From the NCBI RefSeq assembly GCF_988243305.1, contig NZ_OZ547136.1: 64,000 nt of DNA; one strand, written 5' to 3'. The notes below the pieces were generated by a model that was not told the DNA's origin, ran no database searches, and saw only the letters and a program-made list of their open reading frames with translations. Both the position numbers and the translations under genes were made by a program. Every line of letters starts with the position of its first letter. Positions within the stretch are counted from its first letter, which is position 1. Shown here piece after piece: positions 38,951-60,337 of the stretch.

Positions 38951-39652
38951 GTGGCAGTGAACAGTTTTAACGAAGGGGTGGTTTCACCCCTTTTGTCTTT
39001 CTGGCGTCGATCATTGATGCTGGCAGGCGCTCTGTTTCTCACTGCCTGTAGTCACAACTCTTCACTTCCTCCCTTTACCGCCAGTGGATTTGCTGAAGAC
39101 CAGGGCGCGGTACGCATCTGGCGAAAAGACAGCGGCGATAATGTGCATCTGCTTGCCGTGTTTAGCCCGTGGCGCAGTGGCGATACCACAACGCGAGAGT
39201 ATCGCTGGCAGGGCGATAACCTCACGCTCATCAATATCAATGTTTACAGCAAACCGCCGGTGAACATTCGCGCGCGTTTTGACGATCGCGGCGATCTGAG
39301 CTTTATGCAACGTGAATCCGATGGGGAAAAGCAGCAGCTTTCTAACGACCAAATCGATTTATACCGTTATCGTGCTGATCAGATCCGCCAGATTAGCGAT
39401 GCCTTACGTCAGGGGAGAGTCGTGCTGCGCCAGGGGCGCTGGCATGCGATGGAGCAGACTGTGACCACCTGCGAAGGGCAAACCATTAAACCTGATTTAG
39501 ATTCGCAGGCGATAGCGCATATCGAGCGCCGCCAGAGCCGCTCTTCTGTTGATGTCAGCGTGGCATGGCTGGAAGCGCCCGAAGGTTCGCAATTACTGTT
39601 GGTGGCAAACTCTGATTTCTGTCGCTGGCAACCCAACGAGAAAACGTTCTGA
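38951..39652 (+). CDS. yjaH: YjaH (DUF1481) putative lipoprotein, 233 aa (start uncertain; GTG at 38957 also possible)
   Basis: ORF track; lipobox-like LFLTAC near N-terminus. Confidence 0.75.
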   Translation: MAVNSFNEGVVSPLLSFWRRSLMLAGALFLTACSHNSSLPPFTASGFAEDQGAVRIWRKDSGDNVHLLAVFSPWRSGDTTTREYRWQGDNLTLININVYSKPPVNIRARFDDRGDLSFMQRESDGEKQQLSNDQIDLYRYRADQIRQISDALRQGRVVLRQGRWHAMEQTVTTCEGQTIKPDLDSQAIAHIERRQSRSSVDVSVAWLEAPEGSQLLLVANSDFCRWQPNEKTF

Positions 39653-39653
39653 T

Positions 39654-40079
39654 TTACCAGTGGCCCATACCCATATGACCGCCACCACCGCAGCCGCCGT
39701 AGCCCATGCCCATTCCGGCTCCGCGCGGAATACCCGCTTCAGCCATCGCAATATCCCGTTTCACCCGTAACTCATCTAACGACTGACGCAAAGCCTCCAT
39801 CTCTTTGGCGACCGCGTTAATTTTGCTGCTATCCGGTGGGTTCGCGGCTAACAGGGCATTGTATTCATAACGCTTCGTCACCAGTTGCTGTTGCAGTGCG
39901 CTGCTTTGAGCGTAAAAGTCATTATGGATTTTCTGCCACGCTGTTTGTTGTTCGCTGGTCAAGGGCGCGGCATTTTGTTGCCACATCCCGTGTCCGCCGT
40001 GAGCAAATACAGATGTCGATCCCATCGCCATTGCTGAAAGCGCCATCATCACCAGGGCAATTTTCGTGTTCCGTTTCAT
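39654..40079 (-). CDS. zraP: Zinc-resistance-associated periplasmic protein ZraP, 141 aa
   Basis: ORF track 39654..40220 trimmed to MKRNTKIALVMMALSAMAMG signal peptide; Gly/His/Met-rich C-terminus GMGMGYGGCGGGGHMGMGHW. Confidence 0.85.
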   Translation of the reverse strand: MKRNTKIALVMMALSAMAMGSTSVFAHGGHGMWQQNAAPLTSEQQTAWQKIHNDFYAQSSALQQQLVTKRYEYNALLAANPPDSSKINAVAKEMEALRQSLDELRVKRDIAMAEAGIPRGAGMGMGYGGCGGGGHMGMGHW

Positions 40080-40113
40080 GGTTAATCCTCCAGTGGTTGT
40101 CTTACTTTGGGTA

Positions 40114-40131
40114 TTGCATCTTTCGTGCCAA
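40114..40131 (-). promoter_or_regulatory. sigma54 promoter for zraP (-24 TGGCACG / -12 TGCA)
   Basis: Minus strand reads TTGGCACGAAAGATGCAA (GG-N10-GC spacing). Confidence 0.7.
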
Positions 40132-40172
40132 CAACGAAACGCTGATATGACGGGTAATCTGGCATGATAAAC

Positions 40173-40218
40173 GAGTAAAAATGACTCGCCTGTTGTGGGT
40201 AGCGAGTCATTTTTACTC
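40173..40218. promoter_or_regulatory. ZraR (sigma54 enhancer-binding protein) sites: two perfect 17-bp inverted repeats GAGTAAAAATGACTCGC / GCGAGTCATTTTTACTC
   Basis: Seen in sequence at 40173-40189 and 40202-40218, centred between the divergent sigma54 promoters. Confidence 0.7.
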
Positions 40219-40268
40219 ATTGAAACTTAAGTCTTTGTGTTACAGCGCAGGGTAAGCGCTGCTAAAAG

Positions 40269-40285
40269 ATGGCATGATTTCTGCT
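40269..40285 (+). promoter_or_regulatory. sigma54 promoter for zraSR (-24 TGGCATG / -12 TGCT)
   Basis: aTGGCATGatttcTGCTg with GG-N10-GC spacing. Confidence 0.6.
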
Positions 40286-40325
40286 GTCAAAAAGGGATGA
40301 ACAGGCAAAGAAGAAGATACGTTTT

Positions 40326-41714
40326 ATGCAACGTTCAAAAGACACCTTAGCCAAATGGTTAAGCGCGATCCTCCCCGTGGTCATTGTTGGGCTGGTGGGA
40401 ATGTTTGCGGTAACGGTGATTCGTGATTATGGGCGGGCAAGTGAGGCTGACCGTCAGGCATTACTGGAAAAAGGTAATGTGCTCATTCGCGCTCTGGAGT
40501 CAGGAAGCCGCGTAGGGATGGGGATGCGAATGCACCATGTGCAGCAACAGGCGCTTCTGGAAGAGATGGCAGGCCAGCCTGGGGTGTTGTGGTTTGCGGT
40601 CACCGATGCGCAGGGCATCATCATTCTTCACAGTAACCCCGAAATGGTCGGGCGTGCACTCTATTCTCCTGATGAAATGCAGCAGTTAAAGCCAGAGGAA
40701 AACTCCCGCTGGAGACTGCTTGAGGATGCAGAAAAAACGCCTGCGCTTGAGGTCTATCGTTTGTTCCAGCCAATGTCATTGCCCTGGCGGCATGGTATGC
40801 ACAATATGCCGCGCTGTAACGGCAAAGCTGTGCCACAGGCAGAAGCACAACAGGCTATTTTCATCGCCGTTGACGCCAGCGATCTGGTTGCAACCCAGAG
40901 TGGGGAAAAGCGCAATACCCTGATTATCCTCTTCGCCCTGGCGACGGTCTTGCTGGCAAGCGTGTTGTCATTCTTCTGGTATCGTCGCTATCTGCGCTCG
41001 CGCCAGTTGTTGCAAGATGAAATGAAGCGCAAAGAGAAGCTGGTGGCGCTGGGGCATCTTGCGGCAGGTGTTGCCCACGAAATCCGTAACCCACTTTCCT
41101 CGATTAAAGGGCTGGCGAAATACTTTGCCGAACGCGCGCCAGCCGGGGGAGAAGCGCATCAACTGGCGCAGGTGATGGCGAAAGAAGCCGACCGTTTAAA
41201 CCGCGTGGTAAGCGAGTTGCTGGAACTGGTTAAGCCAACGCATCTGGCTTTGCAGGCGGTGGATCTCAACACGCTGATTAACCACTCATTACAGCTGGTA
41301 AGCCAGGATGCAAACAGCCGGGAGATCCAGTTACGCTTTACTGCCAACGACGCGTTGCCGGAAATTCAGGCCGACCCGGACAGGCTGACTCAGGTCCTGT
41401 TGAATCTCTATCTCAATGCTATTCAGGCGATTGGTCAGCATGGCGTGATTAGCGTGACGGCCAGCGAAAGCGGCGCGGGCGTGAAAATCAGCGTTACCGA
41501 CAGCGGTAAGGGAATTGCGGCAGATCAGCTTGAAGCCATCTTCACCCCGTACTTCACCACCAAAGCCGAAGGCACCGGACTGGGGCTGGCGGTCGTGCAT
41601 AATATTGTTGAACAACACGGTGGTACAATTCAGGTCGCAAGCCAGGAGGGAAAAGGCGCAACGTTCACCCTCTGGCTTCCGGTCAATATTACGCGTAAGG
41701 ACCCACAAGGATGA
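40326..41714 (+). CDS. zraS: Sensor histidine kinase ZraS (HydH), 462 aa as called here
   Basis: ORF track; H-box AHEIRNPLSSI, G-boxes DSGKGI / GTGLGLAV; in-frame ATA-CGT-TTT precedes the ATG (see findings). Confidence 0.85.
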   Translation: MQRSKDTLAKWLSAILPVVIVGLVGMFAVTVIRDYGRASEADRQALLEKGNVLIRALESGSRVGMGMRMHHVQQQALLEEMAGQPGVLWFAVTDAQGIIILHSNPEMVGRALYSPDEMQQLKPEENSRWRLLEDAEKTPALEVYRLFQPMSLPWRHGMHNMPRCNGKAVPQAEAQQAIFIAVDASDLVATQSGEKRNTLIILFALATVLLASVLSFFWYRRYLRSRQLLQDEMKRKEKLVALGHLAAGVAHEIRNPLSSIKGLAKYFAERAPAGGEAHQLAQVMAKEADRLNRVVSELLELVKPTHLALQAVDLNTLINHSLQLVSQDANSREIQLRFTANDALPEIQADPDRLTQVLLNLYLNAIQAIGQHGVISVTASESGAGVKISVTDSGKGIAADQLEAIFTPYFTTKAEGTGLGLAVVHNIVEQHGGTIQVASQEGKGATFTLWLPVNITRKDPQG

Positions 41715-43036
41715 CGCACGATAATATCGATATTCTGGTGGTGGATGATGACATTAGCCACTGCACTATTTTGCAGGCTTTGCTGCGCGGCTGGGGCTAT
41801 AACGTCGCGCTGGCGAACAGCGGGCGACAGGCGCTGGAGCAGGTGCGGGAACAGGTTTTTGATCTTGTGCTTTGCGATGTGCGAATGGCAGAGATGGATG
41901 GCATCGCCACGCTCAAAGAGATCAAAGCGTTAAATCCGGCAATTCCGGTACTGATTATGACCGCGTACTCCAGCGTCGAGACGGCGGTAGAGGCGTTGAA
42001 AACCGGGGCGCTGGATTATCTCATCAAGCCGCTGGATTTCGATAACCTGCAGGCGACGCTGGAAAAGGCGCTCGCACATACGCACAGTGTTGACGCTGAA
42101 ACGCCTGCGGTGTCTGCCAGCCAGTTCAGTATGGTCGGTAAAAGCCCGGCGATGCAACACCTGCTCAGTGAAATCGCCCTCGTCGCGCCATCGGAAGCCA
42201 CGGTGCTGATCCACGGCGATTCCGGCACCGGTAAAGAGCTGGTCGCCAGGGCGATTCACGCCAGTAGCGCACGGAGTGAAAAACCACTGGTAACGCTCAA
42301 CTGTGCGGCACTCAACGAATCCTTGCTGGAATCTGAATTGTTCGGTCACGAAAAAGGGGCGTTTACCGGAGCCGACAAACGGCGGGAAGGGCGCTTTGTT
42401 GAGGCGGACGGCGGCACGCTGTTTCTCGATGAAATTGGCGATATCTCGCCGATGATGCAGGTTCGTCTGCTGCGTGCGATTCAGGAGCGCGAAGTTCAGC
42501 GTGTCGGCAGCAACCAGACCATCTCGGTTGATGTCCGGCTGATTGCGGCGACTCATCGCGATCTTGCCGCAGAGGTGAATGCCGGGCGTTTTCGCCAGGA
42601 TCTCTACTATCGCCTGAACGTGGTGGCGATTGAAGTTCCGTCGCTGCGTCAGCGGCGGGAAGATATTCCTCTGCTGGCAAACCATTTTCTTCAGCGCTTT
42701 GCCGAGCGTAATCGCAAGGCGGTAAAAGGTTTTACGCCCCAGGCGATGGATCTGCTGATTCACTACGACTGGCCGGGAAATATTCGTGAACTGGAAAACG
42801 CGGTGGAACGGGCGGTGGTGCTGCTGACCGGGGAATATATTTCCGAACGCGAGCTGCCGCTGGCGATTGCGAGTACGCCGATCCCGCTGGTACAAAGTCA
42901 GGATATTCAGCCGCTGGTGGAAGTCGAAAAAGAGGTGATTCTTGCGGCACTGGAGAAAACGGGCGGCAACAAAACCGAAGCCGCCCGTCAGTTAGGGATC
43001 ACGCGCAAAACGCTCTTGGCAAAACTGTCGCGTTAG
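41711..43036 (+). CDS. zraR: sigma54-dependent response regulator ZraR (HydG), 441 aa
   Basis: ORF track; receiver domain, AAA+ GAFTGA motif (EKGAFTGA), C-terminal HTH; ATGA overlap with zraS. Confidence 0.9.
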
Positions 43037-51431: not shown

Positions 51432-51551
51432 TGCCTGGCGGCCGTAGCGCGGTGGTCCCACCTGACCCCATGCCGAACTCAGAAGTGAAACGCCGTAGCG
51501 CCGATGGTAGTGTGGGGTCTCCCCATGCGAGAGTAGGGAACTGCCAGGCAT
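51432..51551 (+). rRNA. rrfE: 5S ribosomal RNA (rrnE operon)
   Basis: TGCCTGGCGGCC...GGGAACTGCCAGGCAT, 120 nt. Confidence 0.95.
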
Positions 51552-51565
51552 CAAATTAAGCGAAA

Positions 51566-51591
51566 GGCCATCCGTCAGGATGGCCTTTTTG
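51566..51591 (+). terminator. rrnE intrinsic terminator
   Basis: GGCCATCC-gtca-GGATGGCC followed by TTTTTGCG. Confidence 0.75.
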
Positions 51592-51607
51592 CGTTGGTGA
51601 AAAAAAT

Positions 51608-51643
51608 GCCGGGTGCGACGCTGGCGCGTCTTCTCCAGCCTGG
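51608..51643. repeat. REP-like (repetitive extragenic palindrome) sequence
   Basis: GCCGGGTGCGACGCTGGCGCGTCTTCTCCAGCCTGG resembles the E. coli REP family (GCCKGATGCGRCG...RCGYCTTATCMGGCCTAC) with mismatches. Confidence 0.45.
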
Positions 51644-51663
51644 GCAGGCACGGCAGGGGCAGC

Positions 51664-52107
51664 TTATTCCCCCACATACGCCAGATTCAGCAACGGATAC
51701 GGTTTCCCCAAATCGTCCACCTCAGAGCGTCCCGTAACCTTAAAACCCATCTTCTTATAGAACCCAACAGCCTGCTTATTTTGCTCATTAACATTGGTTG
51801 TCAGTTCCGGTGCCATCGAGAGCGCATGTTCCACCAGCATCCGACCCACGCCGCAGCCGCGCACATCAGGATCGATAAACAGCGCATCCATATGCTGCCC
51901 ACTTAACAACATAAACCCAACCGGCCGATCCCGCTCATTAACCGCGACCCACAACGGCGCTTCCGGCAGGAAGGAACGAACTAGCTCCTCCAGCTCGGCC
52001 CGATACTCTGCTGATAAAAAATCGTGAGTGGCATCGACAGAACGACACCAAATCGCAACCAGTTCCTCCCCTTCCTCATGCCGTGAGCGGCGAATACTAA
52101 TAACCAT
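51664..52107 (-). CDS. yjaB: GNAT-family N-acetyltransferase YjaB, 147 aa
   Basis: ORF track; acetyl-CoA binding region RGCGVGRMLVEHAL. Confidence 0.85.
   Translation of the reverse strand: MVISIRRSRHEEGEELVAIWCRSVDATHDFLSAEYRAELEELVRSFLPEAPLWVAVNERDRPVGFMLLSGQHMDALFIDPDVRGCGVGRMLVEHALSMAPELTTNVNEQNKQAVGFYKKMGFKVTGRSEVDDLGKPYPLLNLAYVGE

Positions 52108-56436: not shown

Positions 56437-60337
<3,901 letters not shown>

What the first reader, a model, noticed from the sequence alone, without database searches (positions are those of the whole stretch)
40080..40325. zraP-zraSR divergent control region is intact; zraS has ATA where an upstream start would be
The 246-bp spacer has back-to-back sigma54 promoters (minus strand TTGGCACGAAAGATGCAA for zraP; plus strand TGGCATGATTTCTGCT for zraS) bracketing two perfect 17-bp inverted repeats (GAGTAAAAATGACTCGC / GCGAGTCATTTTTACTC), the expected enhancer sites for ZraR. 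Immediately upstream of the zraS ATG at 40326 the in-frame sequence is ATA-CGT-TTT; I recall K-12 ZraS beginning MRFMQRSKD, so this strain may have a point change (ATG to ATA) that moves initiation three codons downstream.
Basis: partly seen in the sequence, partly recalled or inferred. Interest (0 to 1): 0.25.

Follow-up and report, generated by a model that had tools for sequence, protein, structure and literature searches.

The report
zraP–zraSR control region, ATA start variant
This is the well-known zinc/envelope-stress switch between the E. coli genes zraP and zraSR, fully intact, and the ATG-to-ATA change in front of zraS is a real but ordinary lineage polymorphism (about 5% of complete E. 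coli genomes) that most likely just shortens the sensor kinase by three residues.

Summary
Window 40080-40325 is the 246-bp zraP/zraSR spacer. It holds two divergent sigma54 promoters (40131-40114 minus strand; 40270-40285 plus strand). Between them lie two dyad sites, GAGT-N7-ACTC, each inside a 17-mer (40173-40189, 40202-40218).

These four blocks are the conserved parts of a spacer otherwise only 65% identical across nine genera. Their spacing is nearly fixed. Published K-12 work places sigma54 and ZraR there.

Codon 40317-40319 is ATA where K-12, ST131 and O157:H7 have ATG. It is not strain-specific: 274 of 5,426 complete E. coli genomes carry ATA and 5,072 carry ATG.

Across 48 enterobacterial species, zraS has an in-frame start at the upstream position, at the downstream one, or at both (13/14/21), and never at neither. 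So the ATG at 40326 is very probably a competent start, giving a 462-aa ZraS.

Whether initiation "moves" depends on which ATG K-12 uses, and that is unmeasured. Neither ATG has a Shine-Dalgarno sequence in Escherichia. RefSeq annotates the ATA itself as the start, probably because its ZraS model includes the three extra residues.

The control region is already known, and the interest is low.

The parts
39654..40079 (-). zraP coding sequence (141 aa plus stop), a periplasmic zinc-binding chaperone and accessory protein
   Evidence: ORF. NCBIfam equivalog ZraP, 271 bits against a cut-off of 200. 139/141 identical to K-12.
40086..40091 (-). Shine-Dalgarno sequence GGAGGA of zraP, 6 nt before its ATG
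   Evidence: Read directly from the sequence. It contrasts with zraS, which has no Shine-Dalgarno sequence.
40114..40131 (-). Sigma54 promoter of zraP, TTGGCACGAAAGATGCAA. GG is at 40129/28 and GC at 40117/16. The inferred start of transcription is near 40104, 25 nt before the ATG.
   Evidence: Sequence. The TGCATCTTCCGTGCCA block is conserved in 47 of 48 species. The K-12 ChIP-seq peak and motif TTGGCACGGAAGATGCA lie 25 nt from the gene (PMC4591121).
40173..40189 (.). Enhancer site 1 (presumed ZraR dimer site): GAGTAAAAATGACTC dyad inside the 17-mer GAGTAAAAATGACTCGC
   Evidence: Nearly invariant across 9 genera. ZraR binds this spacer in K-12 by gSELEX and ChIP-exo (PMC8249747; PMC7657598).
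40202..40218 (.). Enhancer site 2: GAGTCATTTTTACTC dyad inside GCGAGTCATTTTTACTC. Its centre is 31 bp (three helical turns) from the centre of site 1.
   Evidence: Centre-to-centre distance is 31-33 bp in all 48 species.
40270..40285 (+). Sigma54 promoter of zraSR, TGGCATGATTTCTGCT. GG is at 40271/72 and GC at 40283/84. The inferred start of transcription is near 40296.
   Evidence: Identical or within one base in 47 of 48 species. The K-12 ChIP-seq motif ATGGCATGATTTCTGCT lies 21 nt from the annotated start.
40317..40319 (+). ATA at the position of the K-12 annotated zraS start codon (ATG in 5,072 genomes, ATA in 274)
   Evidence: RefSeq annotates this ATA as the start in 6 of 6 genomes checked.
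40326..41714 (+). zraS from the first canonical start (462 aa plus stop), a sensor histidine kinase
   Evidence: NCBIfam equivalog ZraS, 837 bits against a cut-off of 479; residues 1-461 match profile positions 4-459 of 460. HisKA and HATPase_c domains. 96% identical to K-12.
41711..43036 (+). zraR, a sigma54-dependent response regulator. Its ATG overlaps the zraS stop codon (ATGA).
   Evidence: NCBIfam equivalog ZraR, 994 bits against a cut-off of 760. Response_reg, Sigma54_activat and HTH_8 domains. 435/441 identical to K-12.

Best explanation
This is the ordinary, functional zraP-zraSR divergent control region of E. coli.

How it works. Phosphorylated ZraR binds the two dyad sites. Their centres are 31 bp apart, so they lie on the same face of the helix. 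ZraR assembles there into an AAA+ oligomer and, by DNA looping, activates RNA polymerase-sigma54 closed complexes at both promoters. One drives zraP leftwards, starting near 40104. The other drives zraSR rightwards, starting near 40296. This gives zinc- and envelope-stress-induced chaperone synthesis and positive autoregulation of the sensor and regulator.

The start codon. The zraS message carries two in-frame start positions 9 nt apart. In this lineage the upstream one is ATA, so ZraS is made almost entirely from the ATG at 40326. The product is 462 aa and begins MQRSKDT. Compared with the K-12 annotation it lacks only Met-Arg-Phe from the short cytoplasmic tail before the first membrane helix.

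Shown and inferred. Shown here: the sequence elements, their conservation and spacing, the allele frequencies, and the cross-species pattern of start codons. Taken from K-12 literature: sigma54 and ZraR binding. Inferred: the transcription start points, use of ATG 40326, and the absence of a functional consequence.
For: - Identity of the locus: synteny yjaH-zraP/zraSR-purD, equivalog-level matches and 96-99% identity to K-12.
- Promoters and enhancer: conserved blocks in a 65%-identical spacer.
- Fixed distances: enhancer 2 to the zraS -12 element 71-73 bp in 47 of 48 species; site to site 31-33 bp in all 48.
- K-12 experiments: sigma54 ChIP-seq, and ZraR gSELEX and ChIP-exo on this spacer.
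- The ATA is real and inherited. The exact 35-mer occurs in 274 genomes. It sits on intact zraS genes in unrelated sequence types that share protein WP_024166544.1.
- The downstream ATG is a competent start. 14 of 48 species have only that start, and in the C. freundii group a good Shine-Dalgarno sequence (AAGGGAGA, -8.4 kcal/mol) lies 4 nt before it. E. albertii lost the upstream ATG independently through a 1-nt deletion. No species lacks both starts.
- ATG->ATA at the upstream position arose independently in C. amalonaticus (L015) and Phytobacter ursingii (L035), each time with a downstream ATG present.
- AUA supports only about 1-2% (0.02-3%) of AUG initiation in E. coli (bioRxiv 10.1101/063800).
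Against: - No direct measurement of the ZraS N-terminus exists for any strain.
- In Escherichia neither start has a usable Shine-Dalgarno sequence: the best pairing is -2.5 kcal/mol.
- In the predicted fold of the 5' end of the message, the upstream codon sits in a loop (probability unpaired 0.87-0.98) while ATG 40326 is partly paired (0.33-0.36). Output from ATG 40326 could therefore be lower than from the K-12 upstream ATG, so a quantitative effect on ZraS, and through the overlapping stop/start on ZraR, is not excluded.
- In Klebsiella, Kluyvera, Trabulsiella and Phytobacter the Shine-Dalgarno sequence serves the upstream position, which suggests that position is ancestral.
Confidence: 0.8

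Rival explanations
1. The downstream ATG (40326 here) is the true zraS start in all E. coli, K-12 included. The K-12 'MRF' extension is then an annotation artefact, and the ATG/ATA difference is a neutral change in the 5' untranslated region, so nothing moves.
For: - The purine-rich run GAAGAAG ends directly at the upstream ATG (spacing 0) but lies 8-9 nt before the downstream ATG.
- Two independent Escherichia lineages lost the upstream ATG: E. coli ATA and E. albertii by deletion.
- No Escherichia locus examined lacks the downstream ATG.
- The three intervening codons vary freely between genera.
Against: - GAAGAAG pairs only weakly with the anti-Shine-Dalgarno sequence (-1.9 kcal/mol).
- 93% of E. 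coli genomes keep the upstream ATG.
- 13 of 48 species have only the upstream position, with a well-placed Shine-Dalgarno sequence.
- The upstream codon is the more accessible one in the predicted fold.
Confidence: 0.3
2. The ATA itself is the initiation codon, as RefSeq annotates. It would give a 465-aa ZraS at a low rate, comparable to the AUU starts of infC and pcnB.
For: - PGAP places the start at the ATA in 6 of 6 ATA-allele genomes.
- ATA is an allowed start in translation table 11.
- AUA gives measurable initiation.
- The codon is unpaired in the predicted fold.
Against: - AUA reaches only about 1-2% of AUG, and no Shine-Dalgarno sequence compensates.
- An AUG lies 9 nt downstream in frame.
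- The annotation is explained by the NCBIfam ZraS profile, which includes three extra N-terminal positions: the 462-aa form aligns from profile position 4.
Confidence: 0.08
3. The ATA is a loss-of-function start-codon mutation, and zraS is decaying or strongly down-tuned in this lineage.
For: - The upstream start is the ancestral, Shine-Dalgarno-served position in several genera.
- ATG 40326 is partly paired and lacks a Shine-Dalgarno sequence.
- zraR is translationally overlapped with zraS.
Against: - The 462-codon ORF is intact, with all kinase motifs and 96% identity to K-12.
- The same full-length protein is kept in different sequence types.
- None of the 6 ATA-allele genomes checked carries a pseudogene flag.
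- The allele has spread by recombination onto another zraS background, in O169:H41.
Confidence: 0.07

Closest known systems
E. coli K-12 zraP-zraSR (formerly hydHG) intergenic region (Leonhartsberger et al. 2001, J Mol Biol 307:93, cited from the reference lists of PMC4987338 and PMC7657598; the paper itself could not be read)
   Same: Same locus and synteny. Same two sigma54 promoters, two dyad sites and spacing. 246-bp spacer measured to the downstream ATG. 13 single-base differences from K-12 in 246 bp.
   Different: ATA instead of ATG at the annotated zraS start. One base differs inside the zraP promoter spacer (GAAAG against GGAAG). Two bases differ between the dyads.
glnAp2 with its two NtrC enhancer sites (own knowledge of the NtrC system)
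   Same: A sigma54 promoter activated from two dyad sites about three helical turns apart, roughly 70-120 bp upstream. The activator is a receiver-AAA+-Fis-type HTH response regulator. ZraR scores 462 bits on the NtrC model.
   Different: Here one enhancer pair serves two divergent promoters. The regulator is ZraR and the signal is zinc or envelope stress.
Non-AUG initiation at infC and pcnB (AUU) (own knowledge)
   Same: A near-cognate AUN codon at an annotated start.
   Different: Those codons are conserved and have a regulatory role (IF3 autoregulation for infC). Here ATA is a minority allele with an in-frame AUG 9 nt downstream, so non-AUG initiation is not needed.
Salmonella zraP/zraSR (PMC4987338)
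   Same: Divergent sigma54 promoters controlled by ZraR. The same four conserved blocks (S. enterica arizonae and diarizonae).
   Different: GTG at the upstream start position. The zraP promoter lies 11 bp further from the enhancer than in Escherichia.

Membership tests
Sigma54 (RpoN) dependent promoter | GG and GC doublets exactly 10 bp apart within TGGCAC-N5-TTGCW | tested here: met
   zraS promoter TGGCATGATTTCTGCT at 40270-40285. zraP promoter TTGGCACGAAAGATGCA at 40131-40115 on the minus strand.
Sigma54 (RpoN) dependent promoter | Conservation of the -24/-12 block in orthologous regions | tested here: met
   Both blocks are present, exact or within 1-3 mismatches, in 47 of 48 enterobacterial species.
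Sigma54 (RpoN) dependent promoter | Physical binding of sigma54 holoenzyme and dependence on an activator ATPase | not testable with these tools
   Shown for the K-12 orthologue by ChIP-seq (PMC4591121). Not measured for this strain.
Enhancer (upstream activating sequence) for a sigma54 activator | Dyad-symmetric sites more than about 70 bp upstream of the promoter, phased on one helical face | tested here: met
   GAGT-N7-ACTC occurs twice with centres 31 bp apart. The centres lie 63 and 73 bp from the two -12 elements.
Enhancer (upstream activating sequence) for a sigma54 activator | A cognate activator with a sigma54-interaction AAA+ domain and a DNA-binding HTH encoded nearby | tested here: met
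   ZraR has Response_reg, Sigma54_activat (247 bits) and HTH_8 domains, and a GAFTGA loop is visible in its sequence.
Enhancer (upstream activating sequence) for a sigma54 activator | Direct binding of the activator to these sites | not testable with these tools
   K-12: gSELEX found 81 of 86 clones from this spacer (PMC8249747), and ChIP-exo found peaks there (PMC7657598). The resolution to the two dyads rests on conservation.
zraPSR orthologue | Equivalog-level protein matches and conserved neighbourhood | tested here: met
   ZraS 837/479 bits, ZraR 994/760 bits and ZraP 271/200 bits (score/cut-off). Gene order yjaH-zraP/zraS-zraR-purD.
Functional non-AUG (AUA) start codon | No canonical in-frame start nearby, and conservation of the non-AUG codon | tested here: not met
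   An ATG lies 9 nt downstream in frame. ATA is in 5% of genomes and ATG in 93%.
Functional non-AUG (AUA) start codon | Protein N-terminus mapped to that codon | not testable with these tools
   No zraS entry in the held supplements of two start-site studies, and none held for a third.

The most novel reading that the evidence does not exclude
zraS may be an example of start-site redundancy with turnover. Two in-frame starts 9 nt apart have been lost alternately several times in Enterobacteriaceae, but never both.

In Escherichia neither start has a Shine-Dalgarno sequence. There the message is predicted to begin one base before a further AUG (40297), which is out of frame in E. coli and in frame with zraS in E. 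albertii. Ribosome loading on that 5'-proximal AUG, or the choice between the two starts, could set the ZraS and ZraR dosage. The ATA allele would then be a cis-acting down-tuning of the envelope-stress sensor in the ST38/ST405-type lineage.
Probability: 0.1. Interest if true: 0.35.

Novelty: already known. Interest (0 to 1): 0.1.

Why it matters
It matters little for biology. The region is a textbook sigma54 divergent promoter pair, and it is intact.

The practical points are about annotation.
- About 5% of complete E. coli genomes carry an ATA where the reference start lies.
- RefSeq propagates the 465-aa model onto that ATA. In those genomes the deposited protein begins with a residue that is probably never made.
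- Anyone building zraS fusions, deletions or biosensors in ST38/ST405-type strains should use the ATG at the position of 40326.

The cross-species pattern (upstream start only, downstream start only, or both, never neither) is a clean small example of start-codon turnover.

Tried and rejected
- Sigma70 and terminator scan of 39500-40600: nothing found. This fits purely sigma54 control.
- The third TGGCATGAT at 40160-40168, a direct repeat of the zraS -24 element, was considered as a third sigma54 site. It was rejected because no GC lies at the -12 distance and it is not conserved outside E. coli (E. albertii reads TGTTGCGGC).
- Sequencing error as the source of the ATA: rejected, since the exact 35-mer occurs in 274 genomes.
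- Shigella as the source of the window's private SNPs: no sign of it. The gene order is the standard E. coli btuB-rrnB-rpoBC-thi-zra-pur-rrnE-ace region and no large insertions were seen.
- Compensatory changes near ATG 40326 on the ATA haplotype: none evident. The linked SNPs at 40290 and 40301 are shared with E. whittamii, which keeps ATG.
- Direct evidence for the ZraS N-terminus: no relevant paper for 'zraS' plus 'start codon'. No zraS entry in the held supplements of the INRI-seq and TRAINSPOTTER papers, and no supplements held for the Ribo-RET preprint.
- Leonhartsberger et al. 2001 could not be read.
- My first regular expression for the minus-strand promoter was wrong and was corrected.

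Full report
**What is there**

Reading 39500-40700 and the ORF list gives the following layout.
- zraP lies on the minus strand at 39654-40079. A strong GGAGGA Shine-Dalgarno sequence lies 6 nt before its ATG.
- A 246-bp spacer follows (40080-40325).
- Then comes an ORF whose first canonical start is ATG 40326 (462 aa, zraS).
- zraR follows at 41711-43036. Its ATG overlaps the zraS stop codon.
- purD converges on the minus strand.

NCBIfam places the three proteins in the ZraS, ZraR and ZraP equivalog families, well above the cut-offs. Pfam shows HisKA and HATPase_c in ZraS, and Response_reg, Sigma54_activat and HTH_8 in ZraR. Identity to K-12 is 96% for ZraS, 435/441 for ZraR and 139/141 for ZraP.

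The window as a whole is the usual E. coli btuB-rrnB-rpoBC-thi-zra-pur-rrnE-metA-aceBAK region.

All of them are present.
- The minus-strand motif TTGGCACGAAAGATGCAA runs from 40131 to 40114.
- The plus-strand motif TGGCATGATTTCTGCT is at 40270-40285.
- The two 17-mers are at 40173-40189 and 40202-40218. They extend to 20-nt arms, 95% complementary.
- Each 17-mer contains its own dyad, GAGT-N7-ACTC. These are the only two matches to that pattern in 64 kb.

Pattern counts alone are weak evidence: 0.41 and 0.58 matches are expected by chance.

Conservation is decisive. I fetched zraS loci from one genome per species and aligned 12 spacers from nine genera. Mean column identity is 65%. The long runs of invariant or near-invariant columns fall on the two promoters, the two dyads and the zraP start.

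**The geometry is constrained**

| Distance | Value | Where |
|---|---|---|
| Dyad centre to dyad centre | 31-33 bp | all 48 species |
| Dyad 2 centre to the zraS -12 element | 71-73 bp | 47 of 48 species |
| zraP -12 element to dyad 1 centre | 73-76 bp | every non-Escherichia genus |
| zraP -12 element to dyad 1 centre | 62-63 bp | all Escherichia |

The last difference is 11 bp, one helical turn, so it keeps the phasing.

**Link to experiments**

- In K-12, sigma54 ChIP-seq peaks carry the motifs TTGGCACGGAAGATGCA (zraP) and ATGGCATGATTTCTGCT (zraS). The listed distances to the genes are 25 and 21 nt (PMC4591121).
- Those distances equal what I get by placing +1 twelve bases after the -12 C. 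That gives about 40104 for zraP and about 40296 for zraS.
- ZraR bound this spacer as its single high-affinity target in genomic SELEX (81 of 86 clones; PMC8249747).
- ZraR also gave ChIP-exo peaks upstream of zraP and zraSR (PMC7657598).

The mechanism is therefore the established one: phospho-ZraR on two phased dyads activates two divergent sigma54 promoters by looping. For this strain it is inferred from near-identity of the elements with K-12. The only change inside an element is one base in the non-critical spacer of the zraP promoter, and two more bases differ between the dyads.

**The ATA**

K-12, ST131 and O157:H7 read ATG-CGT-TTT-ATG where the window reads ATA-CGT-TTT-ATG. K-12 ZraS is annotated from the upstream ATG (MRFMQRSKD, 465 aa).

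To count alleles I used a 35-mer centred on the variable base with megablast. Its 28-base exact word must cover that base.
- The ATA form occurs in 274 of 5,426 complete genomes.
- The ATG form occurs in 5,072.

Carriers include strains labelled ST38, 405, O102:H6 and ST2747. By my own knowledge ST38 and ST405 are phylogroup D. The absence of yjaA from the window fits that.

The allele sits on one 5' haplotype. It has also been recombined onto the other major zraS background, in an O169:H41 strain. The nearest complete genome is 99.6% identical over 4.2 kb.

**Which codon is used?**

On the message from the zraS promoter, only 40317 (ATA) and 40326 (ATG) are candidate starts. The in-frame stop at 40275-40277 lies upstream of the transcription start.

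AUA gives about 1-2% (0.02-3%) of AUG initiation in E. coli (bioRxiv 10.1101/063800).

Start states across 48 enterobacterial species:

| Canonical start present | Species |
|---|---|
| At both positions | 21 |
| Upstream position only | 13 |
| Downstream position only | 14 |
| Neither | 0 |

- Kluyvera, Kosakonia and K. pneumoniae are upstream-only. Their downstream codon is ATA, TTA or AAA, and a good Shine-Dalgarno sequence lies 4-5 nt before the upstream ATG.
- The C. freundii group, C. sedlakii and E. albertii are downstream-only. The C. freundii group has AAGGGAGA 4 nt before that ATG.
- ATG->ATA at the upstream position also arose in C. amalonaticus L015 and Phytobacter ursingii L035.
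- E. albertii lost the upstream ATG through a 1-nt deletion.

The downstream ATG is therefore a proven-by-comparison start, and the two positions are redundant. The most likely product here is a 462-aa ZraS. The three lost residues (Met-Arg-Phe) belong to the short cytoplasmic tail before the first membrane helix. Arg, Lys and Lys remain, so the topology should hold; this last point is an inference.

**What stays open**

In Escherichia neither start has a real Shine-Dalgarno sequence. The best anti-Shine-Dalgarno pairing is -2.5 kcal/mol. The GAAGAAG run pairs at only -1.9, directly abuts the upstream codon, and lies 8-9 nt before the downstream one.

In the predicted fold of the first 90 nt of the message, the upstream codon is in a loop (probability unpaired 0.87-0.98). 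The downstream ATG is partly paired (0.33-0.36).

So I cannot tell which ATG K-12 uses. I also cannot tell whether the ATA allele lowers the output of ZraS and of the translationally overlapped ZraR. No start-site or N-terminal data for zraS were found.

**Annotation**

RefSeq places the zraS start on the ATA itself in all six ATA-allele genomes I opened. One protein accession is shared by several sequence types.

The NCBIfam ZraS profile includes the three extra N-terminal positions: the 462-aa form aligns from profile position 4. That probably drives this choice. I regard it as an annotation convention rather than evidence that AUA is used.

**Verdict**

The allele is lineage-wide, not strain-specific. 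And the word 'moves' rests on an unverified K-12 start. The control region is already known and intact, and the polymorphism is ordinary. Interest is low.

Noticed in passing
window 40317-40319; loci L002, L078-L082: RefSeq/PGAP annotates the ATA itself as the zraS start codon in 6 of 6 ATA-allele genomes (for example WP_024166544.1, 465 aa, shared by ST38, '405', C1 and CFSAN061763). The NCBIfam ZraS profile includes the three extra residues: the 462-aa form aligns from profile position 4 of 460.
   Followed up: yes
window about 40440-40920 (ZraS residues about 40-198); L083, L084, L080: E. coli carries two deeply divergent alleles of the ZraS periplasmic sensor domain. One is the K-12/window type (465/462 aa). 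The other is the ST131/O157 type (458 aa, with two small deletions). The membrane and cytoplasmic parts are about 99% identical. An O169:H41 genome is a recombinant: ATA-type 5' end joined to the ST131-type sensor domain, with the breakpoint near 40402-40412.
   Followed up: partly
window 40132-40172, compared with L009-L052: All Escherichia loci have the zraP promoter 11 bp (one helical turn) closer to enhancer site 1 than every other genus (62-63 against 73-76 bp). The other distances in the spacer are fixed to within 1-2 bp across 47 of 48 species.
   Followed up: partly
window 40297-40350 (+); L005 1474-1503: The predicted zraS transcript starts one base before an AUG (40297). In E. coli this opens a 17-codon out-of-frame ORF (MNRQRRRYVLCNVQKTP*) that overlaps both zraS starts. 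In E. albertii the same AUG is in frame with zraS (MTKQRADRFMQRPKD...), because of the 1-nt deletion that removed the upstream ATG. It is conserved in Escherichia only. A possible 5'-proximal AUG effect was not tested.
   Followed up: partly
L005-L052, positions -9 and 0 relative to the zraS start: Start-codon turnover. Of 48 species, 21 have a canonical start at both in-frame positions, 13 only upstream, 14 only downstream and none at neither. G->A changes giving ATA occur at either position in several independent lineages.
   Followed up: yes
window 40160-40168: TGGCATGAT is an exact direct repeat of the -24 half of the zraS promoter, 110 bp upstream of it and just left of enhancer site 1. 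It has no -12 GC and is not conserved outside E. coli, so it is probably chance.
   Followed up: yes
window 40082-40210 (-): A 42-aa ORF spans enhancer site 1 and the zraP promoter. It is annotated as 'hypothetical protein' (WP_001522128.1) in some RefSeq genomes. It lies upstream of the zraP transcription start and is very likely spurious.
   Followed up: no
window 40009, 39792-39794, 40401: Substitutions not seen in the genomes compared. ZraP A24V lies at -3 of the presumed signal-peptidase site. ZraP N96A needs a two-base change. ZraS Leu->Met lies in the first membrane helix. The nearest complete E. coli genome (ST2747) is only 99.6% identical over 4.2 kb.
   Followed up: partly
window 51549-51664; 58151-60337 (-): yjaA is absent. 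Only about 115 bp separate the 5S rRNA of the downstream rRNA operon (rrnE by position in K-12) from yjaB. A 728-aa ORF, which I assign to arpA from its position next to aceK, is present. This fits the yjaA-negative, arpA-positive marker pattern expected for phylogroup D-like strains.
   Followed up: partly
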